Shown: positions 10,422 through 25,625 of the stretch, piece by piece
How the letters are laid out: each line of letters starts with the position of its first letter
How positions within the stretch are numbered: position 1 is the stretch's first letter
Virus record (IMG/VR): IMGVR_UViG_2531839476_000020
From: a virus
Taxonomy: Duplodnaviria > Heunggongvirae > Uroviricota > Caudoviricetes
Strand: one strand, 5' to 3'
Length of the DNA: 25,625 nt
Position numbers and translations under genes: made by a program
Notes under the pieces: generated by a model
Told to the model about the DNA's origin: nothing
Database searches by the model: none
Seen by the model: the letters and a program-made list of their open reading frames with translations, nothing else

Positions 10422-11114
10422 ATGACATTTTCAGAACGACTTGATTTAGCTATGCGCAACGCAAAATTTACGCAAGGTAGGCTGGCCAAAGAAGTGGGTA
10501 TGGCTCAGTCCAGTGTTAATCAACTACTTAACAAAGCCAACGGTTCCAGAAAAACAGTCGAAATAGCAAAAGTTTTGGGCGTTAACCCGGAATGGCTCGC
10601 ATCGGGTGTTGGCCCAATGGAAATCGTGACCTCTGCAGACTCACACCAAATACGTAACATTTCTGAAGATTGGGTTACTGATTCGTATGTCGTGGATGTT
10701 TTAGACATCAGATATAGTTGCGGACCTGGTAGTTATAACTCTGATTTTCCTGATATTGTCAGATCTATAGCGATAGAACCAGGATACGCATCAAGAGTTT
10801 TTGGCGGCAGACCAGCATCAGCAATCAAAGCAATAAACGCCCACGGCGACAGTATGAAAGGCACAATAGACCCTGAAGACTTGGTATTTGTAGATGTATC
10901 AGTTCGCACATTTAATGGTGATGGTATATACGCCTTTACATACTCTGGAACATCGCACATCAAAAGACTTCAAAAAATCAAAGATACTCTAACGGTGATA
11001 TCTGACAACCCAGCTTACAAGGATTGGGCTATCGAACCGGAAGACTTCGAACAACTTCACATTGACGGAAAAGTAATTGTCAGTTGGCCTATGACACTAC
11101 ACCGTTTTGCATAA
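10422..11114 (+). CDS. CI-type prophage repressor (N-terminal HTH + C-terminal S24/LexA-like peptidase)
   Basis: 230 aa; HTH LAKEVGMAQSSVNQLL; C-terminal GDSM serine motif and downstream Lys typical of autocleaving repressors; RBS GGAGG. Confidence 0.9.
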   Translation: MTFSERLDLAMRNAKFTQGRLAKEVGMAQSSVNQLLNKANGSRKTVEIAKVLGVNPEWLASGVGPMEIVTSADSHQIRNISEDWVTDSYVVDVLDIRYSCGPGSYNSDFPDIVRSIAIEPGYASRVFGGRPASAIKAINAHGDSMKGTIDPEDLVFVDVSVRTFNGDGIYAFTYSGTSHIKRLQKIKDTLTVISDNPAYKDWAIEPEDFEQLHIDGKVIVSWPMTLHRFA

Positions 11115-11132
11115 GCAAAAATCATTTAACCC

Positions 11133-11158
11133 GCCCACTCTTAAGTGGGCTTTTTTTT
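11133..11158 (+). terminator. intrinsic terminator after the cI-like gene
   Basis: GCCCACT-CTTA-AGTGGGC hairpin followed by TTTTTTTT. Confidence 0.6.
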
Positions 11159-11179
11159 GGGAAAAAATCGATAAACCGA

Positions 11180-11208
11180 TTGACAGGTGAAATCGGTAAA
11201 CCTATTAT
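11180..11208 (+). promoter_or_regulatory. PL-like sigma70 promoter with flanking operator-type inverted repeat
   Basis: TTGACA (11180-11185), 17-nt spacer, TATTAT (11203-11208). ACCGAT ... ATCGGT arms bracket the -35 and share the CCGAT/ATCGG motif with the operator at 10368-10389. Confidence 0.55.
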
Positions 11209-11257
11209 CTTGACATAGGTATCGAACTCACCAAAGCAATTATAGAGGATGAGAAAA

Positions 11258-11668
11258 ATGTCATCGTATATGGGATTACCAACAAATCAGCACGATGCTC
11301 TTGAGAATATTCAGCTCTTAGTAGGGACTGGTGCACTACTGTATAGCAGCAATAACCCTGAGTTAATTGAACTTGCCAGCTCCATCCTGGCTGTAACTCA
11401 AAAATATAGCCTCACCGCGTCACGTTTATGCAAACAAAATTTAGCTATTAATTCCCAGAATCGGATTCGCACCCAACGCGAAACCTGCGGCTTAACAACC
11501 GCCGAACTCGCTAGGCTGCTCGATCTCGATGAAGAAATTATCATCCAGTGGGAGAGCGGAGAGTACGAACCAACCATCAGCATGCTTATCCCTCTGGCTA
11601 ATGTTCTTGGCTGTGATCCAATGTTGTTATTGACTGATGCTTATAAACAAAATCAGGAGGAAGCATAA
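11258..11668 (+). CDS. HTH (XRE-family) domain protein, first gene of the PL-like operon
   Basis: C-terminal TQRETCGLTTAELARLLDLDEEIIIQWESGEYEPTISMLIPLANVLG is an XRE-type HTH; RBS AGAGGA upstream of the second ATG. Confidence 0.65.
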   Translation: MSSYMGLPTNQHDALENIQLLVGTGALLYSSNNPELIELASSILAVTQKYSLTASRLCKQNLAINSQNRIRTQRETCGLTTAELARLLDLDEEIIIQWESGEYEPTISMLIPLANVLGCDPMLLLTDAYKQNQEEA

Positions 11669-11669
11669 G

Positions 11670-11861
11670 ATGAAAATGTTCAAAGGCCTTACCAACGAAC
11701 CGGAGACAACTTTTCATCACATTGCCGTACTGCTTGAAGCGGGGTTAATCATTTCGGCTTCCGGTGATGAAGAATGTGATGAACTTTCGGATGATATCTT
11801 TTTACTGGCACAACAATACGCCAGAAGCGCATGCGATGCATTTAAGGAGCAAAGAACATGA
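11670..11861 (+). CDS. hypothetical acidic small protein (64 aa)
   Basis: RBS AGGAGG before ATG at 11670; tightly packed with neighbours. Confidence 0.5.
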   Translation: MKMFKGLTNEPETTFHHIAVLLEAGLIISASGDEECDELSDDIFLLAQQYARSACDAFKEQRT

Positions 11862-12049
11862 AAACTCCATTAAATATTCTTGAGGAAGTGGCAGCACAAA
11901 TAAAAGAGAATACATCAATGCTTGAATTTATATTTAAGAATTCGCCCGACTCAGGAGAGACAGACGATTATTTATGTTGCCTCATTCGCTCCATGAATAA
12001 AACCTGTGAAATGGCTTACGCGTATATCGACACACTGCGCAACGAATAA
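11858..12049 (+). CDS. hypothetical small protein (63 aa)
   Basis: ATGA start/stop overlap with the previous gene; RBS AAGGAG. Confidence 0.5.
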   Translation: MKTPLNILEEVAAQIKENTSMLEFIFKNSPDSGETDDYLCCLIRSMNKTCEMAYAYIDTLRNE

Positions 12050-12233
12050 AGAAAACTCAATAAACAATCACCCATAAAAACATAACGGTCTCTGGTCGGG
12101 AATTTCCACAACCTGAAAATGGTGGTGATGCATGAAAAACAGAAGTGCTTATAAAACCGCATTATTAATGGCTAATGCAGGATACTGGTCAGTTGCAATA
12201 CTGTTTCTCAGGAAAGCATACGGGAAATAACAA

Positions 12234-12593
12234 ATGACACATGAACCCATTAATACATATCGTCGCCGTATAGCTGTTGCGGCACTCCATCGAATAAAAC
12301 GTAAAACAGGTGGTAATCTGCTTATTGTTGACCTTCCTGATGGGAACATTACGACCATAGAAATAACTGAACAGTTTATAAACCAGTTGCTGTTACGCTT
12401 CGAAGGTATTACCCGTGGTGAATTGGGCCGGGTGGAGGGTGAAACCGAAATCCACACTGCATACCAGAATGCTATCGGGATTAATCAACATACTGAATAC
12501 CTGACTGAAACCGGAAAGTTAATTATAGACAACCTTTTTCAAGAGATTATTGATTACGCGAAAGAAAAATATATCAGCGGAGGAATTAACTGA
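12234..12593 (+). CDS. hypothetical protein (119 aa)
   Basis: ORF coupled (ATGA overlap) to the downstream gene. Confidence 0.5.
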   Translation: MTHEPINTYRRRIAVAALHRIKRKTGGNLLIVDLPDGNITTIEITEQFINQLLLRFEGITRGELGRVEGETEIHTAYQNAIGINQHTEYLTETGKLIIDNLFQEIIDYAKEKYISGGIN

Positions 12594-12808
12594 TGGCTAA
12601 TTTATCCCCTGTATCTGTTGTGCACGAAAAAGTGCAGATCGTTATGACAATTGAAAATGGCCAAGTCACAGGTGTCTGCAAAGTCCGCGATGGCGAGCTG
12701 ATTGCCAGCATGGATACATTCATACGGCTGGCAGAAAGAGCGGGGTATCAGATAACAGCACCTGCTCAGGAGGAAACCGGTGGCATTAACAGCAACACGC
12801 ATTCCTGA
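12593..12808 (+). CDS. hypothetical protein (71 aa)
   Basis: RBS GGAGG; start overlaps the upstream stop. Confidence 0.5.
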   Translation: MANLSPVSVVHEKVQIVMTIENGQVTGVCKVRDGELIASMDTFIRLAERAGYQITAPAQEETGGINSNTHS

Positions 12809-12994
12809 GCGGATCCACCGGCAGGCATTGCAGGTCCTGTTGTTGTACCGATGCCGACGGATATTTCCGCATCGGATACAGCGCACCGGATATCTCAGTC
12901 TGAAGGTTAACCGTCGCTGGCGGCTGTTATCGAAAGACGACGGCCGGAACTGGGAAGTAATGAGTCATGAACGTTATTCGGGAGAAATAAAGAA

Positions 12995-13387
12995 ATGATC
13001 GACAACCGCACCGCCAGCACCATTGACCAGGCATTACAGAAACATGATACACCCGTCGGCCCGTTATTTTTTGTAACACGCCACGGAAGAACAAAAAAAT
13101 GCCTCACCCGAAAAACGGCAATTCGTTACCTGGCATTCTTTATGACCACCCGCGCTTTTGAACGTTCAGGATTCCGACAACGCTATCCTGACAAGCGTTT
13201 TATCTTCAACAGGAATGAGATATGGAAACGTGGAGAATCAACCACAGAGTATACCCGCGCACACCAGCGAACAATCAGACGACTGCGCAGACTCATCGCC
13301 AGGAAACAGTATACAGAAAAATGGTTCAGAAAATATGACACATGGAGCGCCGGATATTACGAACTGATGGCAACAAAACCATTCTGA
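12995..13387 (+). CDS. hypothetical highly basic protein (130 aa)
   Basis: RBS GGGAGA; Arg/Lys-rich, suggesting nucleic-acid binding. Confidence 0.5.
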   Translation: MIDNRTASTIDQALQKHDTPVGPLFFVTRHGRTKKCLTRKTAIRYLAFFMTTRAFERSGFRQRYPDKRFIFNRNEIWKRGESTTEYTRAHQRTIRRLRRLIARKQYTEKWFRKYDTWSAGYYELMATKPF

Positions 13388-13447
13388 CGTAAACGAAATT
13401 AACCATGACGCAATTAAATAAGGCAAGCCGAATACATCAGGAGGACC

Positions 13448-13636
13448 ATGAACATTTATTTCAGAATAGTTATATCACTGGCAATTATCACATGTATTTA
13501 CGGATTAATCGTTCCGGCCCTCATATCAATGAAGGATACGGTAGCAGTGATTTCTGGCTTTGCTCTGGCGTGTCTGACCCCGCCCTGCATTTATGCCATT
13601 TATAAGGGTCTTTCTTTTTCTAAGGATAAAAGATGA
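13448..13636 (+). CDS. small two-helix membrane protein (62 aa), coupled to the SPFH lipoprotein gene
   Basis: RBS AGGAGG; two hydrophobic segments (IVISLAIITCIYGLIVPALI and VISGFALACLTPPCIYAIY); stop overlaps the next start (ATGA). Confidence 0.55.
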   Translation: MNIYFRIVISLAIITCIYGLIVPALISMKDTVAVISGFALACLTPPCIYAIYKGLSFSKDKR

Positions 13637-14460
13637 AAAAATTACTTTTTGCTTTAGCCCTTGTTCTGCCGACCATTGGCCTTGTCGGTTGCGATCGCGT
13701 TGAGCCTGGTAATGTGGGCATCAAAGTAAACAAACTGGGCGACGATAAAGGCGTCGGTGAAGTGGTCGGTGTTGGGCGCTACTGGACGGGATGGAACACT
13801 GAGGTTTACATCTTCCCGACCTTTAAGCAGATGAAGACCTACGATGATCCATTCAGTTTCCAGATGAGTGACGGTACAACCATCGGCTATCACATCGGCG
13901 TGGCCTACAAAGTTGATCCATCCAAAGTTACCACAGTCTTTCAGACCTACCGCAAAGGCGTGGACGACATTACCGACACCGACCTGCGCCAGAAGATAGC
14001 CGACGCACTCAACCGACTGGCCAGCAAAATGACCACCGACAAATTTATCGACGGCGGCAAGTCTGAGCTGCTGGATGCAGCTCTTAAAGACATTCAGGAA
14101 GAAATGACGCCCATCGGTATTCAGGTAATGAGCCTCTCATATGTGGGTAAGCCGGAGTACCCACCTACTGTTATCGACAGCATTAATGCCAAAGTCACGG
14201 CGAACCAGAAAACCCTGCAACGCGAGCAGGAAGTAAAACAGCGCGAAGCGGAAGCCAACATGTTGCGCGCGGAAGCTGCCGGACAGGCAGATGCGATTCG
14301 CACAAAAGCCCAGGCCGAAGCCGATGCTATTCGTTTACGCGGTGAAGCTCTGCGCCAGAACCCCGGTGTTATGGAGCTGGAAGCCATCAACAAGTGGAAC
14401 GGTACACTGCCGCAATACATGACCAGCGGTGCCAACACACCATTTATTCAGGTTAAGTAA
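13633..14460 (+). CDS. SPFH/band-7 (prohibitin-like) domain lipoprotein
   Basis: Lipoprotein signal MKKLLFALALVLPTIGLVGC (lipobox LVGC); SPFH-like core and an Ala/Glu/Arg-rich coiled-coil tail QREQEVKQREAEANMLRAEAAGQADAIRTKAQAEADAIRLRGEALRQ. Confidence 0.75.
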   Translation: MKKLLFALALVLPTIGLVGCDRVEPGNVGIKVNKLGDDKGVGEVVGVGRYWTGWNTEVYIFPTFKQMKTYDDPFSFQMSDGTTIGYHIGVAYKVDPSKVTTVFQTYRKGVDDITDTDLRQKIADALNRLASKMTTDKFIDGGKSELLDAALKDIQEEMTPIGIQVMSLSYVGKPEYPPTVIDSINAKVTANQKTLQREQEVKQREAEANMLRAEAAGQADAIRTKAQAEADAIRLRGEALRQNPGVMELEAINKWNGTLPQYMTSGANTPFIQVK

Positions 14461-14503
14461 TACATATGCCCGGTATTACACGCCGGGCTGTCTGGAGATA
14501 AAA

Positions 14504-15253
14504 ATGAATATTGTAACCATCAACAACAAACAGTTTCCGGTAATCGAATATCGCGGTCAGCGTGTTGTGACATTTGCAATAATTGATGACGTCCACCAGC
14601 GCCCGGAAGGTACCGCCCGTGCTGCGTTTAACCGCAACCGTTCTCACTTTATCGAAGGGGTGGATTTTCTTGAAATGACTGCGGACGTAATACGTACGGA
14701 GTCACTTTCTGATGCCTTTGCCGCGCGAACTGCCAAAGGGATCATTCTTTTCGAGTCTGGTTACCTGATGTTGACGAAGCCTTTTAACGATGCTCTTGCA
14801 TGGCAGGTTCAGCGCGAACTGGTTAACAGCTATTTCCGAACTCACGCGCCGCTGACGGAAATGGAGATGATCGCTGCAATGGCCGCCGATGCCGTTCGCC
14901 AGCAGAAGCGCCTGAGTCATGTTGAAGAGAAGATCGAAACGGTCACCAAAGCTGTGGAGAACATCAAACGCGGCACAATGCGCACCGGATATGTCGGTTA
15001 CCGCCAGGTGGTAGCCAAAAGCGGAATGAGTGACGCCAAGTGTCGGAATCTGGTCAACGCCTACCACATCCCTACCGACACGCACGAATTTATGACTCCG
15101 GACGGTCTGTTGTCTCGCAGGGCTGTCGTCGAGCTTGAGACATTTATGGCGGCGTTCCACCAAATGATGTCAGAGGCTGAACCACGCGGCACACGCTGGT
15201 ATCACCCGAAGATGGGGCTTTTTCAGGTAATCGGATGGGAGGATAAAGCATGA
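14504..15253 (+). CDS. ORF6N/KilA-N domain protein (antirepressor-like)
   Basis: Start at MNIVTINNKQFPVIEYRGQRVVTFAIIDDVH (RBS GGAG); N-terminal domain typical of phage ORF6N/KilA-N DNA-binding modules. Confidence 0.65.
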   Translation: MNIVTINNKQFPVIEYRGQRVVTFAIIDDVHQRPEGTARAAFNRNRSHFIEGVDFLEMTADVIRTESLSDAFAARTAKGIILFESGYLMLTKPFNDALAWQVQRELVNSYFRTHAPLTEMEMIAAMAADAVRQQKRLSHVEEKIETVTKAVENIKRGTMRTGYVGYRQVVAKSGMSDAKCRNLVNAYHIPTDTHEFMTPDGLLSRRAVVELETFMAAFHQMMSEAEPRGTRWYHPKMGLFQVIGWEDKA

Positions 15254-15818
15254 TCATCCAGTCAAAACTTATTCGCGCCGCTCTGGTGTGCGCTGCTAAA
15301 AACGACGTTCGTTATTACCTGAACGGTCTTCACATCACGCCAAAACATATTGAGGCAACCAATGGTTTCGTAGCACTGCGCATGACTCACGGCATCCGGA
15401 CGAAGAAAAACATCATTGTCCAGTTCGAAGGTGGCGTCCCGGCCAAAGCCGAAACGACAGAGCTGATTTTTAGTAAAGAGCCGATCCTGTTCATCGCGAC
15501 CAGTTTCAGCGCCGGCTGTCCATTACCGGCATTAAATTGGTGGACGGTTGTTTTCCGGATTTGGAACGCATCATTCCGAAAAAATTTGACCTCTGTACAC
15601 ACCCGGTGATCCAGGCGGGTTACCTGAGTTATCCAGAGAAGATGTTTGGTCGTGAGCGTAAATTTATTCCCGTCCAGTTACGTTCCTCCGGTGACGGGCA
15701 AGCGGTCAGAATTCAGTTTGATTCCATCATCAACTCAATGTATGGCAATCCTGAATTTGTTGTGATGCCTTGTCGTGATCATGGCGATTTCAATGTGGCT
15801 CAGGAGCATCCGGAATGA
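15250..15818 (+). CDS. DnaN (beta sliding clamp) domain II-III-like protein, apparently split by a 1-nt frameshift near 15505-15512
   Basis: NDVRYYLNGLHI...ATNGFVALRM parallels DnaN QDVRYYLNGMLFE...TDGHRLA. The second frame ITGIKLVDGCFPDLERIIPKK parallels FTSKLVDGRFPDYRRVLPK, and the C-terminal EFVVMPCR parallels AYVVMPMR. Junction is at GCCGGCTGTCC. Confidence 0.5.
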
Positions 15819-15941
15819 AAATCGAATACCAGGACGCCGCAGGAGGTGAATCAATGAGCTGGCCTGATGCAATCGTAACTCTGGGGGTGGTATTCGCAGT
15901 AGCGTTTGTTGTGTTCTCAATTTGTCGATGGGGATAACCAC

Positions 15942-16184
15942 ATGTTCGCTTTGATTCAACGCGGTCAGATATACACGGACAGAGCCGGATACCCCGTGGT
16001 GATTACTCGCATCACTGAGCACTCAGTGTTCTTTCGACGGATGGACGGACGATCCGGGCGGGTACGCATTGGTGAGTTAAACTGCCTGTTCGAACATATT
16101 GACCACCAGGAGTACCGCAAAATTCTCGCGGACACTGAGCAGGAAAAGCACCTGAAAAAATTACGAGCCATAAAAAGGAAGTAA
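15942..16184 (+). CDS. hypothetical protein (about 80 aa)
   Basis: Start moved to MFALIQRGQIYTD; sits in the xis-proximal region. Confidence 0.45.
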   Translation: MFALIQRGQIYTDRAGYPVVITRITEHSVFFRRMDGRSGRVRIGELNCLFEHIDHQEYRKILADTEQEKHLKKLRAIKRK

Positions 16185-16186
16185 AG

Positions 16187-16336
16187 AATGAATAAAGCAT
16201 TTGAACAATGGGTCCACCAGCGTTACGGCAATCGCTATGACCTGACGCGAGATGTTGACGGCTTCTACTGTCGTGAAGTTGTGAAGCGAATGTTTGACGT
16301 GTGGTGCCACTGCCGTGGGCTGAGTGTTATGTGAGG
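16187..16336 (+). CDS. hypothetical small Cys-rich protein (49 aa), below the ORF-track length cutoff
   Basis: ATG at 16187 with RBS AAGGAAG; MNKAFEQWVHQRYGNRYDLTRDVDGFYCREVVKRMFDVWCHCRGLSVM. Confidence 0.3.
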
Positions 16337-16342
16337 TGATGT

Positions 16343-16552
16343 ATGGGGCTGGATTGCGTGCCTATATCAACCTACTGCCGCGACGCGGGAGAAACGGTTG
16401 ATGCCGTTAACAAACGGATACAAAGAGGAATATGGAAAGAAGGGGTTCATGTATTAAAAGTCGACGGAGTTAAAGAACGCTGGGTCGACTTAATAGAGGT
16501 TTCAAAATGGGCAAGAAAGAACAAGGATTATTATCTCTGCCAAGAGGAGTAA
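16343..16552 (+). CDS. excisionase-like protein
   Basis: 69-aa ORF immediately upstream of, and overlapping, the integrase gene, as in xis-int pairs. Confidence 0.55.
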   Translation: MGLDCVPISTYCRDAGETVDAVNKRIQRGIWKEGVHVLKVDGVKERWVDLIEVSKWARKNKDYYLCQEE

Positions 16553-17685
16553 CTATTCGTAAGCATAAAACTGCTTCAACACTAGTTATCACTTTCACAT
16601 ATAAAGGGGTTCTTTGCAGGGAGCCCCTGTCTCGGCTTGAGGCAAATACACGTGGTATTAAATATGCTGAGCGCCTGCTAGGGGAGATACAAAATCAGAT
16701 CGCCAGCGGAACGTTTGAATATGCGAAATATTTCCCCAGTTCCAAAAAACTGGAGTTATTCGGTGTAGTAAAGAAAACCAAAAATATTAAGTCCTATCTT
16801 GATGAATACCTGAAAATTTGCATGAACCGCAATCTGTCGCCGTCAACCATTGGCGGTTACGAAAAATGTCTATCAGCACTATCAGAACTACATAAACTAC
16901 ATGTAACAGAATTGACGCCTGCGGTACTAAAAAATTGGATAGCCAGCCGAAAAACTAAGCTGAAAACAATCAGGAATAACCTGTCATTTCTGCGCAGCGC
17001 CATTGATGAGGCTGTAACTGATGGCCTGTTGACTATTAACCCGGTAACTCTTGTCAGCGCCAGCCGGTATCACGTGGTCGACAGTAAACCGAACGCCGAC
17101 GATTACGAAGTTGATCCGTTTGCGCCTGCGGAAACCAGTGCCATATATCAGCACTGCAAGTATCAGGAATGGCAGAATCTGTTCCGCTTCGCCTTCAATA
17201 CAGGGCTACGCAGCTCTGAGCTATGCGCATTACGTTGGACCGATATCGACTTTATAGGTAATACAGCGCACATACAGGCGGCCAGTGTCGTAGGGGTACT
17301 TAAAGGCACCAAGACAAAAGCCGGTACCCGTAAGGTGGAGCTGAACAGTGAGGCGCTGGCGGCCCTGCAGGCGCAGAAGCAATACACCTTTATGAAAAGT
17401 GAGTTCATATTCAGCGATCCGAAAACGGGAGATCCCTGGACGAACGCCGACGCTATCCGTAAAAAAGCATGGGTGCCGACCCTGAAAAAAGCTGGTGTGC
17501 GCTACCGTAACCCGTACCAGACGCGCCACACATTCGCCACCAGACACATTAGCCAGGGTGTAAACCTTTTCTGGCTTGCCGGGCAGATGGGGCATAAGGG
17601 GCCGGAAATGCTGTTCCGCAATTACGGTAAATACCTGGCTGAATACGACGGGAAAACCGCAATGGAATCTGGAATGAAGAAGTGA
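16507..17685 (+). CDS. tyrosine site-specific recombinase (lambdoid prophage integrase)
   Basis: 392 aa; the C-terminal region carries the conserved residues of the tyrosine recombinase catalytic set (Arg in FNTGLRSSEL, His-x-x-Arg in TRHTFATRH, His in MGHKG, Tyr in LFRNYGKYL); N-terminal arm-type DNA-binding region. Confidence 0.9.
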   Translation: MGKKEQGLLSLPRGVTIRKHKTASTLVITFTYKGVLCREPLSRLEANTRGIKYAERLLGEIQNQIASGTFEYAKYFPSSKKLELFGVVKKTKNIKSYLDEYLKICMNRNLSPSTIGGYEKCLSALSELHKLHVTELTPAVLKNWIASRKTKLKTIRNNLSFLRSAIDEAVTDGLLTINPVTLVSASRYHVVDSKPNADDYEVDPFAPAETSAIYQHCKYQEWQNLFRFAFNTGLRSSELCALRWTDIDFIGNTAHIQAASVVGVLKGTKTKAGTRKVELNSEALAALQAQKQYTFMKSEFIFSDPKTGDPWTNADAIRKKAWVPTLKKAGVRYRNPYQTRHTFATRHISQGVNLFWLAGQMGHKGPEMLFRNYGKYLAEYDGKTAMESGMKK

Positions 17686-17697
17686 TTTGAAGAAAAA

Positions 17698-17721
17698 ACC
17701 CGGCAAATGCCGGGTCTTTTT
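17698..17721. terminator. bidirectional intrinsic terminator between convergent int and cargo genes
   Basis: CCCGGC-AAAT-GCCGGG hairpin flanked by AAAAAA upstream and TCTTTTT downstream. Confidence 0.65.
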
Positions 17722-17726
17722 GATGG

Positions 17727-18494
17727 TTATTCTGTCGCGCCACCTATCGAAACATAATCATGAAATTGATCGTCAATGAGTCGGTCCTTACAGATAACAT
17801 GTACAATGTGACGACAACAGTTTTCATCATCATACGCACGACCCCAGCGAACAATCTCATCTACAGACAGATCATTCGCACTCCATGGCAAAGTACCTGA
17901 AACGCCACGCGCACCTGGACCAAGTATGTCCATAAATTTCTTCGTGCGTGAATTGTAGATCCGTACCTCGGCAATTCGAATGATGCTACTAGCCCAAAGA
18001 GCACCACCGGCAATACTTTGAATGTTATCGCAGATGAGAAACTCATGCTTTCGCGCAAGCATTTTATAGATCTCACGCGCCAAACCTGCTGATTGGAAAT
18101 CCTGTGCGATAACAGCGCTTTTCACTTGCTTTCCGGTCATCATCTGACCGTTCTCTTCGATAAAATTAAAGTCGTTGAACTGTATACGACCTATTCTTAT
18201 CGTTTTGTTATCGTCTACCATATCAAGACCCAAGAGGGTATTGACCAGATCCTGCATTGGAACCTTCGAATCAAGAAGGTCACTGCCATAGTCTAAAAAA
18301 AAGTCGTCGGTGGAACATCCCAGTTGATACACATCCAAGTAGTACTGAAACTCACCAGAACTGACAATGTACTCATCAGCCCTCAGTAAGCCAGCCTCGG
18401 CAGTGAAAAAATAGAATGACTCAATAAGACGTTTTTCGCCAAATGGCGTAATGTTCAAGTCCTTGTTATATGAAGGTATTAACGCAGGAGCCAT
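17727..18494 (-). CDS. hypothetical protein (255 aa), second gene of an int-to-att cargo operon
   Basis: Long ORF convergent with int, 11 nt downstream of the 113-aa gene; no recognisable catalytic motif. Confidence 0.6.
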   Translation of the reverse strand: MAPALIPSYNKDLNITPFGEKRLIESFYFFTAEAGLLRADEYIVSSGEFQYYLDVYQLGCSTDDFFLDYGSDLLDSKVPMQDLVNTLLGLDMVDDNKTIRIGRIQFNDFNFIEENGQMMTGKQVKSAVIAQDFQSAGLAREIYKMLARKHEFLICDNIQSIAGGALWASSIIRIAEVRIYNSRTKKFMDILGPGARGVSGTLPWSANDLSVDEIVRWGRAYDDENCCRHIVHVICKDRLIDDQFHDYVSIGGATE

Positions 18495-18505
18495 TCAGCA
18501 ACCTT

Positions 18506-18847
18506 TTAATGGTAGTTAATTTCCCTGTAGTTCTTCTGCATGTATAGAGCAATTGCCGCTTCAATTTTCTTCAGCAGATTACTGCTTACATACTGAGGAT
18601 ACTGATCTGCTGGCTTCACAACATAGCGCAATTTTTCTTTGTTCATGGCGATCTCAGCGAACGGGATCACGTCACCGTCACGAACCTCATTGTTCAATGT
18701 CACAATAAACAGCTGACGTGCCGGGGAGACACGATCACTCAGTCTTCTCACGAAGAACTCGTTTGCTGTGTTTGAGTCAACAAAAGAACTGACGAGTTGA
18801 GTCCGACGCTCAATCGTCTGTATCGATCTTCTCGCTACTGTTCTCAT
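18506..18847 (-). CDS. hypothetical protein (113 aa), first gene of an int-to-att cargo operon
   Basis: RBS GAGGAG 6 nt upstream of the ATG; preceded by a structured leader. Confidence 0.55.
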   Translation of the reverse strand: MRTVARRSIQTIERRTQLVSSFVDSNTANEFFVRRLSDRVSPARQLFIVTLNNEVRDGDVIPFAEIAMNKEKLRYVVKPADQYPQYVSSNLLKKIEAAIALYMQKNYREINYH

Positions 18848-18886
18848 GCTAGTCTCCTCAACACTTCACTGGCTGTGCAGTGAAGG

Positions 18887-18924
18887 TACAAAAAGCCACT
18901 GATGATAACAGCGTCATCAGTGGC
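18887..18924 (-). terminator. terminator-like hairpin inside the leader of the 113/255-aa operon (possible attenuator)
   Basis: 11-bp stem GCCACTGATGA/TCATCAGTGGC followed on the minus strand by TTTTTG; a second 8-bp hairpin CTTCACTG/CAGTGAAG (18864-18885) lies between it and the RBS. Confidence 0.45.
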
Positions 18925-19176
18925 CCTTGATGGTGATAACCGCAGTTACCTAAATAGTATGATATTACCTTACGGGTAATTCTTCAACGATTGCTCTGAA
19001 TTGAATAGTCTTGAAGTGCTATGAACAGCACAAAACAGCGCTAATCACCGCCCCAGTGGCGCCTAAACACTTCAAAATGTTGGACAGAATCAGGACGTTA
19101 GAGGTACTACAATATGCACGTAAAATGCACGTGAGGTATTTTAAATTAGAAAAATCATTAATATTCAATTGGTTAA

Positions 19177-19217
19177 GAATTTTTCGGATACGGGTTCAAC
19201 TCCCGCCAGCTCCACCA
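19177..19217 (+). other. ssrA: 3' fragment of ssrA (tmRNA) ending in CCA; att core shared by the prophage right end and the P4-type island left end
   Basis: GAATTTTTCGGATACGGGTTCAACTCCCGCCAGCTCCACCA matches my recollection of the E. coli tmRNA 3' end (T-arm, acceptor stem, CCA). No matching 5' acceptor strand or tmRNA body lies upstream. Confidence 0.7.
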
Positions 19218-19382
19218 CTTTTTAGTTGTTTGAAGTTCAATGAAGTCTACTAAGCCCACACAGCACAAGCTCTGCGGGCTTTTTTACGTCTATTGTCGTC
19301 CAGTGAGAATTGCTGAGAACTACGAGTTATGGCACCCTGAATGGGACCCACTAAGAAGGGTCCAAAAACCGAGGGTCCCAAA

Positions 19383-20612
19383 ATGGCAAAAATCGCTAAG
19401 AAGCTCACTGACACTGAAATCAAAAGCACCAAGCCAGCCGATAAAGAAATCAACTTGTTTGACGGTGATGGTCTGATTCTACGAATCGCTCCTTTGGCGA
19501 AAGGAGGCAAGAAAAATTGGTATTTCAGGTATGCAGTACCAGTGAGCAAGAAAAGAACCAAAATGAGCCTTGGGACATATCCTCACCTTACCCTTGCAAG
19601 AGCCAGAGCCTTACGTGATGAATATCTCTCCTTTCTGGCAAATGGTGTTGATCCCCAAATCCATAACAACGATAAGGCGAAGGCATTAAAGAGTGCTACT
19701 GAGCACACTCTCCAAGCCGTAGCGCGGAAATGGTTAGATGAGAAGGTAAAGACATCAGGTATCTCACAAGACCATGCAGCAGACATCTGGCGCAGCTTAG
19801 AGAGAAATGTCTTTCCCGGTCTGGGTAATGTCCCTATCAATGAGATCCGACCTAAGCTCTTAAAACAACACCTTGATCCTATTGAGCAACGAGGCGTATT
19901 GGAAACTCTACGCCGTATCATTTCACGTCTGAATGAAATCTTCCGGTGGGCAGCTACTGAAGAACTTATTGAGTTCAACCCGGCTGACAACCTTGGTCAA
20001 AGATTCAGTAAACCAAAAAAGCAAAATATGCCTGCCCTTCCCCCAAGCGAATTGCCAAGGTTTATGGAATCTTTGACGAATGCGTCAATCCGGTTGGAAA
20101 CACGTATGCTAATTGAATGGCAATTGTTGACATGGGTTCGTCCGGGTGAAGCCGTTCGCGCAAGGTGGTCTGATATTGATACAACCAACAGCATTTGGAA
20201 CATTCCTGCTGATTTCATGAAAATGAAAAAGCTTCACAAAGTTCCTTTGAGTAAAGAAGCTTTGCGCATCCTTGAATTAATGAAATCAATAAGTGGGCAT
20301 AGAGAATGGGTTTTCCCCAGCATAAAAGCGCCTCTTAATCATATGCATGAACAAACAGCCAACGCAGCTATCATCCGAATGGGGTTCGGAGGCGAGCTTG
20401 TAGCTCACGGTATGCGTTCTATTGCACGAACAGCGGCAGAGGAGTCTGGTAAATTCAGAGCTGAAGTTCTTGAGGCAGCGCTTGCCCACTCGAAAAAAGA
20501 TGAAATTATCGCAGCATACAATCGTGCAGAATATCTGATAGAGCGACAGAGTTTGATGCAATGGTGGAGTGATTACGTTCAAGCTCAAAGATCAAATGCT
20601 CTGGTAGCCTAA
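19383..20612 (+). CDS. P4-type tyrosine integrase (IntA-like)
   Basis: Start at MAKIAKKLTDTEIKSTKPADKEINLFDGDGLILRI, the typical P4-family integrase N-terminus; C-terminal AHGMRSIARTAAEESG and catalytic Tyr region; lies directly 3' of the ssrA fragment. Confidence 0.9.
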   Translation: MAKIAKKLTDTEIKSTKPADKEINLFDGDGLILRIAPLAKGGKKNWYFRYAVPVSKKRTKMSLGTYPHLTLARARALRDEYLSFLANGVDPQIHNNDKAKALKSATEHTLQAVARKWLDEKVKTSGISQDHAADIWRSLERNVFPGLGNVPINEIRPKLLKQHLDPIEQRGVLETLRRIISRLNEIFRWAATEELIEFNPADNLGQRFSKPKKQNMPALPPSELPRFMESLTNASIRLETRMLIEWQLLTWVRPGEAVRARWSDIDTTNSIWNIPADFMKMKKLHKVPLSKEALRILELMKSISGHREWVFPSIKAPLNHMHEQTANAAIIRMGFGGELVAHGMRSIARTAAEESGKFRAEVLEAALAHSKKDEIIAAYNRAEYLIERQSLMQWWSDYVQAQRSNALVA

Positions 20613-21138
20613 GTATCAGAATAGCTAATATAATCCTGAAGGTAAAGAAAATGGAAACCCTATTCAAAGTTTTTGAAAAATTTAGTTCCAGACCACTTTT
20701 TTTTATTTTTTTCGGACTCTCACTTTGTGAATTTTTTCAGAAACAATCTGTTCTGATGAATCCATCAGCAGATAACATCGCGAAATTATTCGCAGCCATG
20801 ATATTAGTTGTTTTTTTACTTGGGGATTTGAATGGCTAATCTTCAAGTTCAATGTAAACCTTGAACCTCATGATCAAGGCGATATTGGACCAACAATTGG
20901 AACGGCTACTTTAGCTGTATACTTAGTTTATGCCTTTCACTTTCTCAGTGAAAATCCTGAAGCATTAAATTTAAAGTTATTAACTAACTCTGGCTTTATA
21001 TACAGCACAACTCTATTATTATTCTCATTAGAATGCATGAAGCTTAGAAGACTTAAACAAAAATAAACAACATCATTGTGATGATAAATATAAAATAGGC
21101 ATGGCGAAAAAAAAATCACCACGCCTAAAATATAATAA

Positions 21139-22887
21139 TTATGGTAGCATCATTGATACATAATCCACACCAATCCTTGAGCTATACTGAGACGCTATAG
21201 CCTGATATCTTTCTGCATAACCAGTTCTCAGTTGAGATTTAAGTTTGAGTCGGACAGGAACATTTTGCACGTTGCCATCCATATTACTTAAAAACACGGC
21301 AGAAATAATATTTTTTTCTTCGCCATCAACTGTTGTTCCATGATTCAACACCACCATATAATCAACAACAGGAAGCGTTTTATCCCCTTCGAAAATAGAG
21401 AGATATTTTCTTTGATTTTTATGCATTACATATATATATTTCGAATGTTCAGCAAATGGCAATGCTTTACTCTGACTGGCGTTAAAAAGCTCCAGAACTT
21501 TAATGAGCCTGTGCGGACTTAATCTTACATGGTGAGGGTCGTTACCCTGAGTAGGAACCAAATCACATGCCGCAGATACACATAAATACCATTTGTTCGA
21601 CTCTGTATCAAAGAAAATAGTGCCAGTAGAAATATGACCATCTTCAAAATTCTTTGAAGACAAATTCATATTTAAAGCATGATACATTTCGTGATAAGTA
21701 TCATTATTTGATGGCAGATCCATTTTTGAAGAGCAATATTGGAGCAATGCAGCAACTCCGCTGTTAGCGTATTCATTTGAATAGCTATCAAAAACACTTT
21801 TGATAAATTCATCCAGCGTATTATTATTTTTAAGTCTTTGATAAAGCTCTTCTGATAAATTACCAAATACAAAGTCAATATTTCTACATCTAATATCAGG
21901 CGAGTCTGATTTTAATATCTCATTTAACCACGCAGCTTGACCGTAATGATCGTTAGCCAAATGATTTACAAAAGATAAAGCCTCAGCTTCGATTGCATTC
22001 TGAATTTCAGATTTTATTAACTGATAATAAGATGGTTTCCATTCAATGAGAGAATCATTGAGAGTTTGCCAAATCCTATCTCCATCGTTTTCATGATCAT
22101 CTTGAACCTTATGAAATAGGGAGACAAAGATATTACCACATTGAATCCATTTTACTCCGCTTTCATCACCCCGAATGACATTGCCAGATGTGTTGCTAGA
22201 AATAATTGCATTTCTAGACACAGCATATTCTGCAATCATTTTTGCAATGAAGTTTTTATCCTTTTGTTCCTCCAACACAGCATCATCATGTATTAATCTT
22301 TTAATTCTTCTACAAGGCTTACTGTCTTTAATATAGGCTATTGTTTCATCTCTTGTGAGAGCTTTATTACCATTATCATTTAAGTTCGGTAATACAACGT
22401 CTTCCCAATAACTTTGGACATCTTCATTATCGTAGTCAATGATCAAGCTGTTGATATCCAGAGCACCTTTGAGAGTCGATGATATCTGCATCCAAACCGT
22501 TTCTAAATTCTCTCTAGTATATATTACAATCATATTTAAATGATCGGAGTCTTTCAAATCTTGTAATAGTTTAAGTGTTTTATCAGGTGCATTATTATCA
22601 AGATGATAATCTACAATAATAAGATCTGATTTTCTAATCCGATCCACATCGAAATTAACAGAACCATTGTCAACATCACAAATCATATTTTTAGATTGAA
22701 AAAAGCTCTCAAGAGTAGCGGCTCGTTTAGATGAGTCAATTTTGTTGTAGTCTAAATCAACTTCGTTATTCAACGCCCTGATTGATTCAGAATACGTCAG
22801 AAAATCGTCATCAATCATGACAACGGAACGAATTGCATTTTCGCAGAAAGTTTTCTGGACAAGAGAATTATAATTTGCCACTGTCAT
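21139..22887 (-). CDS. receiver (REC) domain protein with an uncharacterised ~450-aa C-terminal domain; candidate effector of a two-component-like module
   Basis: N-terminus has REC hallmarks: acidic pair VVMIDDD, putative phospho-acceptor Asp in DLIIVDYHLD, conserved Thr in NMIVIYT. The rest has no motif I can name. Start assigned to the second ATG (22887), preceded by TGGAG and abutting the kinase stop (TAATATG). Confidence 0.75.
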   Translation of the reverse strand: MTVANYNSLVQKTFCENAIRSVVMIDDDFLTYSESIRALNNEVDLDYNKIDSSKRAATLESFFQSKNMICDVDNGSVNFDVDRIRKSDLIIVDYHLDNNAPDKTLKLLQDLKDSDHLNMIVIYTRENLETVWMQISSTLKGALDINSLIIDYDNEDVQSYWEDVVLPNLNDNGNKALTRDETIAYIKDSKPCRRIKRLIHDDAVLEEQKDKNFIAKMIAEYAVSRNAIISSNTSGNVIRGDESGVKWIQCGNIFVSLFHKVQDDHENDGDRIWQTLNDSLIEWKPSYYQLIKSEIQNAIEAEALSFVNHLANDHYGQAAWLNEILKSDSPDIRCRNIDFVFGNLSEELYQRLKNNNTLDEFIKSVFDSYSNEYANSGVAALLQYCSSKMDLPSNNDTYHEMYHALNMNLSSKNFEDGHISTGTIFFDTESNKWYLCVSAACDLVPTQGNDPHHVRLSPHRLIKVLELFNASQSKALPFAEHSKYIYVMHKNQRKYLSIFEGDKTLPVVDYMVVLNHGTTVDGEEKNIISAVFLSNMDGNVQNVPVRLKLKSQLRTGYAERYQAIASQYSSRIGVDYVSMMLP

Positions 22888-22888
22888 A

Positions 22889-24607
22889 TTAGAACTCCAC
22901 TCCATTGAACTGGATCACAAAATTAGCGCCATCTTTTATTAAATAGTTATCGCCTTCATCAGGTTCTGAATACCATATTTTATGATGTGCAACAGCAAGG
23001 TTTTCTCGACATAGATACAGACCTACCCCATGTCCATTTGCTCTTTTGCTATAAAATAGTTCAAATAGTCGCGGGATATCATCGGTATCAATTGCCGGAC
23101 CAGAATTTGCTATGATAACCAAAGAATTCACAAAACCAATCTTTATGAGCCTATTATTTGACAGACTGACCCAATACATTGCATTGTTGATAATATTAGT
23201 AAAAACAGGATAGATCCTTGATGGTATATCTGTTATTGCGATTTGCTTAAACTCTTCACTAAATTCAATAGTTATTCGTTGCCGTTCGAAACGCTCCCCA
23301 AAGAACTTCAGGACATAATCCATGATATTTTTTCCAGTTATTCTCTGCCTGGATTGATAACCTGATATTTTCAAAGGTGATAAGAAACGTATTTGTTGAG
23401 TAAGCGATCTGTGAGCATTTAACGCCAATGAAAAACCAGGGTGTTCTTTTACAGAAGTAGGAAGAGAGTTTAGTCCTCTGGTTACCATAGAATCCATTTC
23501 TTCAAGTTCATGAGATATTATCTCAACACTAATACCTAACTGTGCAAGCGCGTTTAAACTTTTAGCTTTTTCTTCAAAATATGAGCGTTCTTCTTCAGAT
23601 AATGAGAATGCTGAATCTAAGTTTATACCTTCAAATAATCTATCGAGACCTTTTATTATTGATTGATATTTGAAAGTTAGGGTATCAACTGACTCAACAT
23701 ATAAACTATCGAGCAAATTAAACACATTTTCAATTTGTGAATCATTATCTATTGAATCAACAACTGATATAGTTTTAGCATAATAATCACTTCGATCAAC
23801 CTTTATTTCATCGGCCCATTTTTTTAAAAGAGAATGTATCTTCTCCTCTATCGTGTTATTAAACTTAGTTAGTTTAGAATTAATAATACCTTGATTTTTT
23901 TCAAGGTGATTTTTCGCTGACAATGAAGGCTCAAGTTTATTTAATTCAGAATCAAGTTTATTAATTGCTAACTTCATTTGTAGAATATACGCAGAGAACT
24001 CATTAAATTTATCTCTGTAGTCTCTATATTTCTCTTCATACATTCCAAGTTTTGGAGGTTTGATAGGCGTTTTAATTTCACTGCGCAACGCATCTAAGTT
24101 TGTAAGATCACTGTCTATAATTTTAAGATAGTTTAAATCTAACGAACCATCAGTTTTATCAAGCTTAGTTTTCAGCCTTTTAACAGCCTCCAAGGAAGCA
24201 TCAAGAACTGGTGTCTGATTCTTCAAAGCTTCTGAAAAACTTTTTTGTGTTGATTTTCGAGCTTGTTGTTGAGCAGATTTTCTTAACTCTTTTTCACGCT
24301 TAACTTGTTCTAAAAGCTCTTTACGGTCATCAGAACGTGAACCAAAAAATCTATCAGCAAGTTCAGTTAACAAATTAGATATAATAGTTTTCAGTTCTCT
24401 TGCAGCCTGGTTTCTTATGAATCCCTCTCTCCCCGACTTATCTTTCAGCTCTTTATTACTGGATTGAGTAATTCCAATATAACCAAAAATCCTTCTATTA
24501 GACCAATAATATCGCCCTGCATTCCATGAACGTCTTTCTTCTATCTGGAAGAAATCATTATCTACTCGACCATAAGGTAATACTCTCAAGCTATCCCTAA
24601 AAATCAT
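22889..24607 (-). CDS. cytoplasmic histidine-kinase-like protein (HisKA H-box + HATPase_c), probably 5'-truncated by IS3
   Basis: H-box ISVEIISHELEEMDS; N-box IYPVFTNIINNAMYW; G1 IIANSGPAIDTDDIPRLFELFYSK; G2 GHGVGLYLCRENL. No transmembrane segment and a long coiled-coil middle. The frame stays open for 41 codons upstream of the ATG at 24607, up to the IS3 terminus at 24729. Confidence 0.75.
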   Translation of the reverse strand: MIFRDSLRVLPYGRVDNDFFQIEERRSWNAGRYYWSNRRIFGYIGITQSSNKELKDKSGREGFIRNQAARELKTIISNLLTELADRFFGSRSDDRKELLEQVKREKELRKSAQQQARKSTQKSFSEALKNQTPVLDASLEAVKRLKTKLDKTDGSLDLNYLKIIDSDLTNLDALRSEIKTPIKPPKLGMYEEKYRDYRDKFNEFSAYILQMKLAINKLDSELNKLEPSLSAKNHLEKNQGIINSKLTKFNNTIEEKIHSLLKKWADEIKVDRSDYYAKTISVVDSIDNDSQIENVFNLLDSLYVESVDTLTFKYQSIIKGLDRLFEGINLDSAFSLSEEERSYFEEKAKSLNALAQLGISVEIISHELEEMDSMVTRGLNSLPTSVKEHPGFSLALNAHRSLTQQIRFLSPLKISGYQSRQRITGKNIMDYVLKFFGERFERQRITIEFSEEFKQIAITDIPSRIYPVFTNIINNAMYWVSLSNNRLIKIGFVNSLVIIANSGPAIDTDDIPRLFELFYSKRANGHGVGLYLCRENLAVAHHKIWYSEPDEGDNYLIKDGANFVIQFNGVEF

Positions 24608-24728
24608 TAGTCCTGCATACTTTTTGGCCTTAAGATCAAAGTGGGAATGTTCACGTTCAGTATGTGATGTATTTTGTGAAAGGAATTCAAACGTTCCTAT
24701 CTGAAGCTCAAATGGGCCGACCCCTGCG

Positions 24729-25625
24729 TGATCCTACCCACGTAATATGGACACAGGCCTAAGCGAGGTTCTTGTTTTCAAATTGTTCCGGACTGAGGCC
24801 GCCACACCAACTGTGCCGCCGCCACCGATTGTAATCACATTCGATATAATTAAACACCGTTGCCCGCATTATTTCCCGGCTGATAAAGTGTTCTCCATGG
24901 ATACATTCCACTTTCAGCGAATGAAAGAAGCTTTCCACGCAGGCATTATCGTAGCAGCAACCTTTTGCGCTCATACTTCCACGCAGATTATGCCGCTTCA
25001 GTTGCGCCTGATAATCTGCTGAACAGTACTGGCCTCCACGGTCCGTGTGAACGATAACGTTCCGGGGCCTCTTACGCCGCCACAGCGCCATCTGCAGGGC
25101 ATCGCAGGCCAGTTGCGCCGTCATGCGTGGCGACATTGACCAGCCAATAACGGCACGTGACCACAGGTCAATGACCACTGCCAGATACAGCCAGCCTTCA
25201 TCTGTACGTAAGTACGTGATGTCTCCTGCCCACTTCTGGTTCGGGCCACTGGCGTAAAAATCCTGCTCCAACAGATTTTCTGACACAGGCAGGCCGTGTG
25301 CGCGGTAGCTGACCGGGCTGAACTTCCGGGAGGCCTTTGCCCTCAGTCCCTGACGGCGCAGGCTTGCCGCCACGGTTTTTACGTTAAAGGGGTAACCCTG
25401 AGCACGCAGTTCATCCGTCAGGCGTGGGGCACCGTAACGCTGTTTTGACCGGGTAAAAGCCGCGAGGACAACGCTGTCGCAGTGTTGGCGGAACTGCTGA
25501 CGCGTGCTTATCCTTGTCCGCCGCTGACACCACGTATACCAGCCGCTGCGGGCCACCCGGAGCACGCGGCACATTGCTTTGATGCTGAACTCAGCCTGAT
25601 GTTTTTCAATAAAGACATACTTCAT
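24729..25625 (-). mobile_element. IS3 insertion sequence, orfB-side portion (element continues beyond the window end)
   Basis: Terminal inverted repeat TGATCCTACCCACGTAATATGGACACAGGCCTAAGCGAGG begins at 24729 and is followed by the complete orfB. Confidence 0.9.
24759..25625 (-). CDS. insF: IS3 transposase OrfB (DDE integrase domain)
   Basis: 288 aa matching my recollection of IS3 OrfB; start codon is at the last three bases of the window, so orfA and the frameshift site lie outside. Confidence 0.9.

What the first reader, a model, noticed from the sequence alone, without database searches (positions are those of the whole stretch)
24608..24760. IS3 appears to have decapitated the kinase gene
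The kinase frame is open for 41 codons upstream of its first ATG and runs straight into the IS3 terminal repeat at 24729; no in-frame start codon lies in that stretch and the RBS for the 24607 ATG is weak. In this AT-rich DNA a 41-codon stop-free run by chance is unlikely, so the sensor N-terminus was probably removed, leaving the module disabled or deregulated. Insertion of IS elements into toxic or defence genes is a common inactivation route.
Basis: partly seen in the sequence, partly recalled or inferred. Interest (0 to 1): 0.55.

Follow-up and report, generated by a model that had tools for sequence, protein, structure and literature searches.

The report
IS3-truncated kinase gene remnant
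An IS3 insertion sequence, together with a deletion, removed the first 376 codons of a 988-codon kinase-like gene and its partner DNA methylase gene from a mobile island, leaving a decaying remnant that about one in ten complete E. coli genomes carry and that databases annotate as an intact gene.

Summary
The minus-strand ORF 22889..24607 (572 aa) stays open upstream with no start codon until it meets the IS3 end at 24729.

- **Truncation:** homologues 99% identical (Salmonella, Klebsiella, Serratia) are 988 aa. The first gene-derived codon here is their codon 377. DNA homology to an intact Salmonella island stops exactly at the IS3 terminus.
- **What was lost:** the N-terminal GHKL ATPase domain (HATPase_c_3, paraMORC-type), the overlapping upstream C5 DNA methylase gene, and the rest of the ssrA island.
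- **Not a simple insertion:** in sibling E. coli genomes the far side of IS3 is a truncated ygaQ pseudogene. The flanks are GCG and AGA, so there is no target duplication. IS3 was therefore involved in a deletion.
- **Spread:** none of 5426 complete E. coli genomes holds the missing 5' part. About 560 hold the remnant.
- **Decay:** carriers show further frameshifts, IS insertions and an 8:1 nonsynonymous-to-synonymous ratio, which favours "disabled" over "deregulated".

The module belongs to the HEF_HK/Response_reg_2 system described computationally in 2021. This is an ordinary IS-mediated pseudogene of low novelty, but it seeds annotation errors.

The parts
24729..25625 (-). Right-hand part of IS3: terminal inverted repeat 24729..24767 and orfB 24759..25625 (288 aa). 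The window ends inside the element.
   Evidence: ORF list. The sequence is identical to the complete 1258-bp IS3 with 39-nt inverted repeats in L001 6830..8087. RefSeq annotates it as 'IS3-like element IS3 family transposase'.
24608..24728 (-). Orphan in-frame 5' stretch with no start codon. It corresponds to codons 377-416 of the ancestral 988-codon gene (plus the last base of codon 376).
   Evidence: Translation. BLASTP to P0003 residues 377-416 is 100%. The DNA alignment shows homology ending at the IS3 terminus.
22889..24607 (-). Annotated 572-aa remnant ORF (ancestral residues 417-988): tail of a beta-rich domain, long helical region, HEF_HK DHp domain (23366..23542) and HATPase_c catalytic domain (22949..23224).
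21139..22887 (-). Cognate response-regulator-like gene (582 aa), start 1 nt after the kinase stop. Receiver domain at about 22363..22833, followed by a helical region and a C-terminal beta-rich domain of unknown function.
20651..21067 (+). 138-codon hypothetical island gene, frameshifted in this window by a T7-versus-T8 run at about 20810 (the ORF now ends at 20839).
   Evidence: Comparison with L001 and L003.
19383..20612 (+). Island tyrosine integrase (409 aa as annotated in RefSeq).
   Evidence: Pfam Arm-DNA-bind_3, Phage_int_M and Phage_integrase. Same gene as in the intact island.
19182..19217 (+). Copy of the last 36 nt of ssrA (tmRNA), the attachment-site border of the island remnant.
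   Evidence: Homology to the intact Salmonella island runs window 24729..19182 against L003 11127..16672 at 98.9%. tmRNA lies at L003 16637..16999. No complete tmRNA in the window.

Best explanation
Window 19182..24728 is the surviving 5.5 kb of an ssrA-integrated mobilisable island.

**Intact form (Salmonella, Klebsiella, Serratia).** The island carries a three-gene operon:
- a C5 DNA methylase;
- a 988-aa protein made of a paraMORC-type GHKL ATPase, a coiled coil, a HEF_HK DHp domain and a HATPase_c domain;
- a response-regulator-like protein (Response_reg_2) with an uncharacterised C-terminal output domain.

**The event in the E. coli lineage.** An IS3-linked deletion joined codon 377 of the kinase gene to nucleotide 1146 of the ygaQ pseudogene. 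The deletion arose either by recombination between two IS3 copies or by intramolecular transposition. It removed:
- the operon's upstream region, and with it presumably its promoter;
- the methylase gene;
- the kinase's start codon and its translational coupling to the methylase gene;
- the GHKL ATPase domain;
- the island's mobilisation genes.

**What remains.** The remnant has no in-frame start before Met417, which has a poorly spaced AGGA. Any transcription would have to come from IS3 read-through or from promoters not detected here.

**Most likely state.** The kinase remnant is a non-functional pseudogene and the two-gene module is drifting.

**Shown:** the truncation, its exact breakpoint, the absence of a target duplication, the loss of the methylase, and secondary lesions in carriers.

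**Inferred:** lack of expression and function; that the N-terminal ATPase is the input or activating module; and that simultaneous loss of methylase and kinase head made the loss tolerable.

The confidence of 0.8 refers to the whole statement, including non-function. The truncation itself is close to certain.
For: **Truncation and breakpoint**
- Full-length 988-aa homologues are 99% identical over all 612 residues, starting at their residue 377.
- The DNA homology break falls exactly at the IS3 end.
- The window matches the intact island at 98.9% over 5549 bp.

**What the intact locus holds**
- Its order is methylase, then kinase (overlapping the methylase by 20 nt), then RR 1 nt downstream.
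- Pfam finds PF13589 at residues 28-137 of P0003 and PF00145 in the methylase.
- NCBIfam finds the BbrUII/HgiDII restriction-enzyme N-terminus at 1.5e-13.

**Deletion rather than insertion**
- The far flank of IS3 is K-12 ygaQ from nucleotide 1146. The flanks are GCG and AGA.

**Population**
- 0 of 5426 complete E. coli genomes hold the methylase plus the kinase 5' part.
- 554-561 genomes hold the remnant. At least 484 share the identical junction.

**Decay**
- Of 39 carriers sampled at even steps, 10 differ in length or coverage.
- Individual loci show a frameshifted kinase remnant, frameshifted RR genes, an IS3-family element inside RR and a further IS1-linked deletion.
- An RR fragment cluster of 453 aa has 1605 members, against 1966 for the 582-aa form.
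- Within E. coli there are 8 nonsynonymous and 1 synonymous point changes. Divergence from the intact allele is 8:11. Fisher P = 0.039.

**Domain context and expression signals**
- The break lies inside a conserved beta-rich region.
- No promoter signal above chance appears at the junction.
Against: - Both ORFs are still uninterrupted in this window and in most carriers.
- The remnant keeps the H-box histidine, the N and G boxes and a genuine DHp-CA fold.
- The RR keeps the acidic pair, the phospho-acceptor Asp and the Thr.
- IS3 orfB reads toward the remnant with no terminator-like site between them, so read-through transcription is possible.
- The divergence-based N:S ratio for the remnant (5:4) does not differ significantly from RR plus integrase (P = 0.11).
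- The polymorphism sample is small (7 sequences) and was partly chosen for length variants.
- No expression data were available.
Confidence: 0.8

Rival explanations
1. The remnant is expressed and active, that is, deregulated rather than dead. IS3 read-through transcribes the pair. Translation starts at Met417. A headless DHp-CA kinase constitutively phosphorylates, or acts as a phosphatase on, the RR, which has been co-opted for a methylase-independent role.
For: - Intact ORFs in most carriers.
- A bona fide DHp-CA core and conserved receiver residues.
- IS3 orfB is co-oriented with no terminator in between.
- The kinase stop and RR start are still coupled.
Against: - About a quarter of an evenly spaced sample of carriers show length or coverage changes. 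The loci inspected have frameshifts, IS insertions or further deletion in one or other gene.
- The within-E. coli N:S ratio is 8:1.
- The AGGA is poorly spaced.
- The break lies inside a conserved domain.
- In another GHKL-headed defence protein, VcSduA, the ATPase is essential (PMC12137116).
Confidence: 0.1
2. The 572-aa form is a natural short architecture (HEF_HK plus HATPase_c without HATPase_c_3, 'group 2' of Bellieny-Rabelo et al. 2021). IS3 merely landed upstream of it.
For: - 572-aa proteins are annotated in Salmonella, Klebsiella, Yersinia, Pectobacterium and Morganella.
- The 2021 paper reports 34 of 222 sequences with this architecture.
Against: - The 40 codons upstream of Met417 are in frame and 100% identical to residues 377-416 of full-length proteins.
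- Homology ends at the IS3 tip.
- The Salmonella '572-aa' gene is an uninterrupted 999-codon ORF with a mis-called start.
- The Klebsiella one is a split gene.
Confidence: 0.02
3. IS3 made a simple insertion that split the gene. The 5' portion and the methylase survive on the other side of IS3, so the system could be restored or expressed in two pieces.
For: This is the default expectation for an IS hit, and the window ends inside IS3.
Against: - In nine sibling genomes the far side is the ygaQ pseudogene.
- There is no 3-bp duplication.
- No complete E. coli genome contains the 5' part anywhere.
- No simple-insertion junction was found in species-representative genomes.
Confidence: 0.02

Closest known systems
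HEF_HK / Response_reg_2 two-component-like system linked to C5 methylases and paraMORC ATPases (Bellieny-Rabelo, Pretorius & Moleleki, Genome Biol Evol 2021; PMC8011034)
   Same: Both Pfam signatures are present in adjacent, coupled genes. The intact 99%-identical allele has the predominant 'group 1' architecture, HATPase_c_3 + HEF_HK + HATPase_c, with an upstream C5 methylase, as the paper describes.
   Different: The copy here lacks the HATPase_c_3 head and the methylase because of an IS3-linked deletion. The paper does not consider pseudogenes or truncations. Function is experimentally unknown for the whole family.
MORC/paraMORC GHKL ATPases of restriction-modification systems (Iyer, Abhiman & Aravind 2008, PMC2292703), including the BbrUII/HgiDII restriction-enzyme N-terminus (NF050001)
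   Same: The lost N-terminus carries the GHKL motifs (PF13589). It matches the BbrUII/HgiDII N-terminal region at 1.5e-13 and sits next to a C5 methylase.
   Different: Here the ATPase is fused to a histidine-kinase core instead of a nuclease. An S5 domain could not be confirmed because the model confidence is low.
IS-mediated adjacent deletions and IS-IS recombination that create pseudogenes in E. coli
   Same: A complete IS3 is flanked by two unrelated truncated genes without a target-site duplication. A later IS1-linked deletion at the same spot occurs in strain ET479.
   Different: Nothing unusual. Which of the two deletion routes operated cannot be told from the sequence.
VcSduA, a Shedu-type nuclease with an N-terminal GHKL ATPase (Nat Microbiol 2025, PMC12137116)
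   Same: A defence protein headed by a GHKL ATPase whose ATPase mutant (E27A) loses activity. This is a precedent that removing such a head disables the protein.
   Different: The output is different (a PD-(D/E)xK nuclease in the same chain). There is no kinase or receiver relay, and no homology beyond the GHKL fold was tested.

Membership tests
HEF_HK/Response_reg_2 TCS-like system | HEF_HK (PF19191) DHp-like domain with the core His | tested here: met
   26.3 bits against a cutoff of 24.1, residues 396-454 of the 612-aa translation. The SHELEE motif is invariant in the family alignment.
HEF_HK/Response_reg_2 TCS-like system | C-terminal HATPase_c catalytic domain | tested here: met
   [not shown]
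HEF_HK/Response_reg_2 TCS-like system | N-terminal HATPase_c_3 (present in 83% of members; the 'group 1' architecture) | tested here: not met
   Absent from the window copy. Present at residues 28-137 of the 99%-identical full-length P0003. It was lost by truncation.
HEF_HK/Response_reg_2 TCS-like system | Adjacent Response_reg_2 (PF19192) gene | tested here: met
   [not shown]
HEF_HK/Response_reg_2 TCS-like system | Upstream C5 cytosine DNA methylase | tested here: not met
   None in the window. Present and overlapping the kinase start in intact loci L003-L006. Absent from all complete E. coli genomes for this allele.
IS3 (IS3 family insertion sequence) | Imperfect terminal inverted repeats of about 39 bp starting TGATC, and a length of 1258 bp | tested here: met
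   Window 24729 onward is identical to L001 6830..., where the full element is 1258 bp with 39-nt inverted repeats. Only the right part lies in the window.
IS3 (IS3 family insertion sequence) | orfA/orfB transposase made by programmed frameshift | tested here: met
   A 288-aa orfB in the window. RefSeq annotates the sibling copies as 'IS3-like element IS3 family transposase, programmed frameshift'.
IS3 (IS3 family insertion sequence) | 3-bp target-site duplication flanking a simple insertion | tested here: not met
   The flanks are GCG and AGA. This argues for a deletion or recombination event, not against the element being IS3.
MORC/paraMORC ATPase (ancestral N-terminus) | GHKL domain followed by an S5 domain | tested here: inconclusive
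   GHKL is met in P0003. A beta-rich domain at about 309-462 is predicted, but the model has pLDDT 62.9. Its fold was not identified.
Known anti-phage defence systems in PADLOC-DB v2 (including Detocs-type two-component defence) | Match to any PADLOC protein model | tested here: not met
   The kinase remnant has no hit. The RR has only a chance-level hit at E = 0.0026 to an unrelated transmembrane model.

The most novel reading that the evidence does not exclude
The headless kinase and its response regulator, fixed next to IS3 in about 10% of complete E. coli genomes, might not be junk. They could be a domesticated, methylase-independent signalling or defence pair, transcribed by IS3 read-through, in which loss of the GHKL input domain rewired or unlocked the RR's uncharacterised C-terminal effector, which has no sequence or fold match.
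Probability: 0.07. Interest if true: 0.5.

Novelty: already known. Interest (0 to 1): 0.2.

Why it matters
There are three modest reasons.

1. **Annotation.** RefSeq lists the 572-aa remnant as an ordinary 'ATP-binding protein'. The same start is called on at least one uninterrupted 999-codon Salmonella gene. Published counts of a 'short architecture' lacking the GHKL head may therefore partly be artefacts.

2. **A natural experiment on an uncharacterised restriction-modification-like family.** Hundreds of E. coli strains tolerate the RR-effector gene with no methylase. This suggests the effector is harmless without the full-length kinase.

3. **Genome history.** The locus documents a single IS3-linked deletion at the ssrA–ygaQ region, followed by continuing erosion. 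That may be useful as a lineage marker.

None of this would surprise a specialist.

Tried and rejected
- **PADLOC scan** of both proteins: nothing usable.
- **Promoter/terminator scan at the junction:** two promoter-like sites against 1.6 expected, so uninformative.
- **Search for a simple-insertion intermediate:** exact junction pattern in one genome per species, no hit.
- **Context look-ups** for the 572-aa proteins P0079 and P0085: not on record.
- **Literature search** for experimental work on GHKL plus response regulator plus cytosine methyltransferase plus phage: none.
- **Divergence-based N:S ratio** of the remnant against RR plus integrase: not significant (P = 0.11).
- **Rejected readings:** a natural short isoform, and a simple insertion with the 5' half beyond IS3.

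Full report
**1. The observation**

On the minus strand, ORF 22889..24607 encodes 572 aa beginning MIFRDSLRV. Translating further upstream in the same frame gives 42 more sense codons (DHAGVGPFELQIGTFEFLSQNTSHTEREHSHFDLKAKKYAGL) before a TAG.

- That TAG and the two codons after it lie in the terminal inverted repeat of IS3, which starts TGATCCTACCC at 24729.
- Forty complete codons (24608..24727) are outside IS3.
- None of them is ATG, GTG or TTG.
- The only Shine-Dalgarno-like element before the ATG is AGGA with a 3-nt spacer.
- At 34% G+C, a stop-free run of this length has P of about 0.035-0.04. A longer wrong-frame run exists in the same gene. The statistical argument alone is therefore weak.

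The observation itself is accurate.

**2. What the gene is**

- Pfam finds a HEF_HK domain (PF19191) and a HATPase_c domain (PF02518) in the remnant, and Response_reg_2 (PF19192, 3.6e-31) in the next gene, 21139..22887.
- These two Pfam families were defined by Bellieny-Rabelo et al. 2021 (PMC8011034). They describe a cytoplasmic two-component-like pair that is 91.6% linked, usually preceded by a C5 DNA methylase. In 174 of 222 sequences the kinase-like protein has an N-terminal HATPase_c_3 domain of the paraMORC kind.

**3. The truncation test**

A search with the 612-aa extended translation returned proteins of 988 aa from Salmonella enterica, Klebsiella aerogenes, K. oxytoca and Serratia liquefaciens. 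They are 99% identical over 100% of the query.

- BLASTP aligns window residue 1 with residue 377 of P0003, and the annotated Met with residue 417. There are 607 of 612 identities and no gaps.
- P0003 carries HATPase_c_3 at residues 28-137.
- Its N-terminus also matches the N-terminal region of the BbrUII/HgiDII restriction-enzyme family (1.5e-13).
- At the DNA level, the window, a sibling E. coli genome and an intact Salmonella locus are identical downstream of the junction. They are unrelated upstream of it, and the break coincides with the IS3 tip to within one base of microhomology.
- In all, window 24729..19182 matches the intact island at 98.9% over 5549 bp. The match ends in the last 36 nt of ssrA.

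So 376 codons are missing. The break falls inside a conserved region: invariant residues lie on both sides, including the block 415-442. A low-confidence model predicts a beta-rich domain spanning about 309-462.

**4. What else was lost, and how**

In intact loci (L003-L006) the order is as follows:

1. tmRNA;
2. integrase;
3. a 138-aa gene;
4. the RR;
5. the 988-aa kinase;
6. a C5 methylase whose end overlaps the kinase start by 20 nt;
7. a relaxase and further recombinases.

In E. coli genomes carrying the remnant, the complete 1258-bp IS3 is instead followed by an 'alpha amylase C-terminal domain' pseudogene, then glaH-lhgO-gabD.

- That flank aligns to K-12 ygaQ from its nucleotide 1146.
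- The 3 bp flanking IS3 are GCG on one side and AGA on the other. IS3 normally leaves a 3-bp duplication (established knowledge), so this is not a simple insertion.
- One event, or two IS3 copies recombining, removed the kinase head, the methylase, the rest of the island and the first 1145 bp of ygaQ. Which route operated cannot be told.
- No complete E. coli genome (0 of 5426) contains the methylase plus kinase 5' DNA of this allele.
- No simple-insertion junction was found in one genome per species.
- Distantly related intact systems do exist in E. coli. Strain SE15 has a methylase, a 989-aa protein, an RR and a phosphorothioate-dependent endonuclease.

**5. Disabled or deregulated?**

The remnant is widespread. 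Between 554 and 561 complete genomes carry it, all at 99% identity or higher and all chromosomal. At least 484 have the identical junction. Nine of ten loci I inspected have the order remnant–IS3–ygaQ'. A single ancestral event is the simplest reading.

Signs of decay are frequent.

- Of 39 carriers taken at even steps down the ranking, 10 differ in length or coverage.
- Inspected cases:
  - a 1-nt deletion in the kinase remnant;
  - frameshifts in the RR;
  - an IS3-family element inside the RR;
  - a 3-nt insertion in the RR;
  - an IS1 that has replaced IS3 and deleted the remnant's first codons together with ygaQ' through part of gabT.
- The RR fragment produced by the IS insertion (453 aa) forms a cluster of 1605 member sequences, against 1966 for the 582-aa form.
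- Among seven E. coli sequences, point changes in the two genes are 8 nonsynonymous to 1 synonymous. Differences from the intact Salmonella allele are 8 to 11. Fisher P = 0.039, but the sample is small and partly chosen for length variants.

On the other side:

- Both ORFs are intact in this window.
- The catalytic motifs are preserved.
- IS3 orfB reads toward the remnant with no terminator-like site.

No expression data exist. I put 'non-functional remnant' at roughly 0.8 and 'still active or deregulated' at about 0.1.

**6. Mechanistic reading of the intact system (inference)**

The architecture is a methylase plus a GHKL ATPase fused to a kinase core, plus a receiver fused to an unknown output domain. 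The N-terminus resembles that of restriction enzymes that pair with C5 methylases. Together these suggest a restriction-modification-like device.

- The ATPase head would be the input or activation module.
- The RR would be the phospho-activated output.

A GHKL head is essential in the unrelated defence protein VcSduA. If this reading is right, losing the methylase and the kinase head in one step would be a safe way to lose the system. Persistence of an intact RR gene without a methylase in hundreds of strains would then imply that the RR is harmless when not activated.

The RR's C-terminal domain (about 395-582) has these invariant residues: Cys436, Cys441, Pro445, Gln552, Arg554, Tyr557, Arg571, Gly573 and Asp575; Asp442 is conserved in at least 90% of sequences. 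It has no sequence or fold match in Pfam or PDB, so its activity is unknown.

**7. Side result on annotation**

The 572-aa proteins annotated in other genera are not natural short forms.

- In Salmonella Bareilly the ORF is uninterrupted for 999 codons (L007 3984..6983), yet only the last 572 are annotated.
- In a K. pneumoniae genome the gene is split into 317- and 572-codon pieces.
- RefSeq does not flag the E. coli remnant as a pseudogene.
- The 2021 paper does not discuss truncation. Its 'group 2' architecture may therefore include such cases. This is my inference.

**8. Verdict**

It should be restated as an IS3-linked deletion, not an insertion, that also took the methylase and most of the island.

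It is an ordinary IS-generated pseudogene of a computationally described but experimentally uncharacterised system. Interest is low (0.2). The residual value lies in annotation clean-up and in the natural-experiment inference about the family.

Noticed in passing
L007 3984..6983 (Salmonella Bareilly); L014 1725..4719 (K. pneumoniae): Genes annotated as 572-aa 'ATP-binding protein' in other genera are a mis-called start on an intact 999-codon ORF (L007) and a split gene (L014). The abundant truncated E. coli protein probably serves as the annotation template.
   Followed up: partly
window 20651..21067, indel at about 20810: The 138-codon hypothetical island gene is frameshifted in this window by a T7-versus-T8 homopolymer difference relative to sibling E. 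coli and Salmonella. It could be a real mutation or a sequencing error.
   Followed up: partly
[not shown]
   Followed up: partly
L016 (E. coli ET479), locus 6464..7546: In this strain an IS1 replaces IS3. The deletion extends into the remnant's first codons on one side, and through ygaQ', glaH, lhgO and gabD into gabT on the other. The RR is also frameshifted.
   Followed up: yes
L012 1945..3158 (E. coli 2015C-3163); also H80 (O103:H2 CEC12044): A second IS3-family element (with an AL1L pseudoknot feature) interrupts the RR gene at codon ~454. The resulting 453-aa fragment is a protein cluster with 1605 member sequences.
   Followed up: partly
E. coli genome searches: A junction-spanning 261-nt query is covered at 80% or more in 484 genomes, while 554 genomes hold the remnant's 5' end. 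About 70 genomes are unaccounted for.
   Followed up: partly
window 1..19181: This is a prophage-like segment between ssrA and the island remnant. It holds an IS66-family transposase fragment (752..1729), a SASA esterase/DUF1737 protein (2741..4594), toprim and DEAD-box helicase genes (6703..9330), a CI-like S24 repressor (10422..11114), an SPFH protein and an integrase (16507..17685). No complete genome in the collection matches more than 65% of the window in one place.
   Followed up: partly
L015 (E. coli SE15) 4693..11885: This is an intact, distantly related system in E. coli: a C5 methylase, a 989-aa GHKL-kinase protein, a 607-aa RR and a phosphorothioated-DNA-binding restriction endonuclease. 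About 205 complete genomes have a similar N-terminal match.
   Followed up: partly
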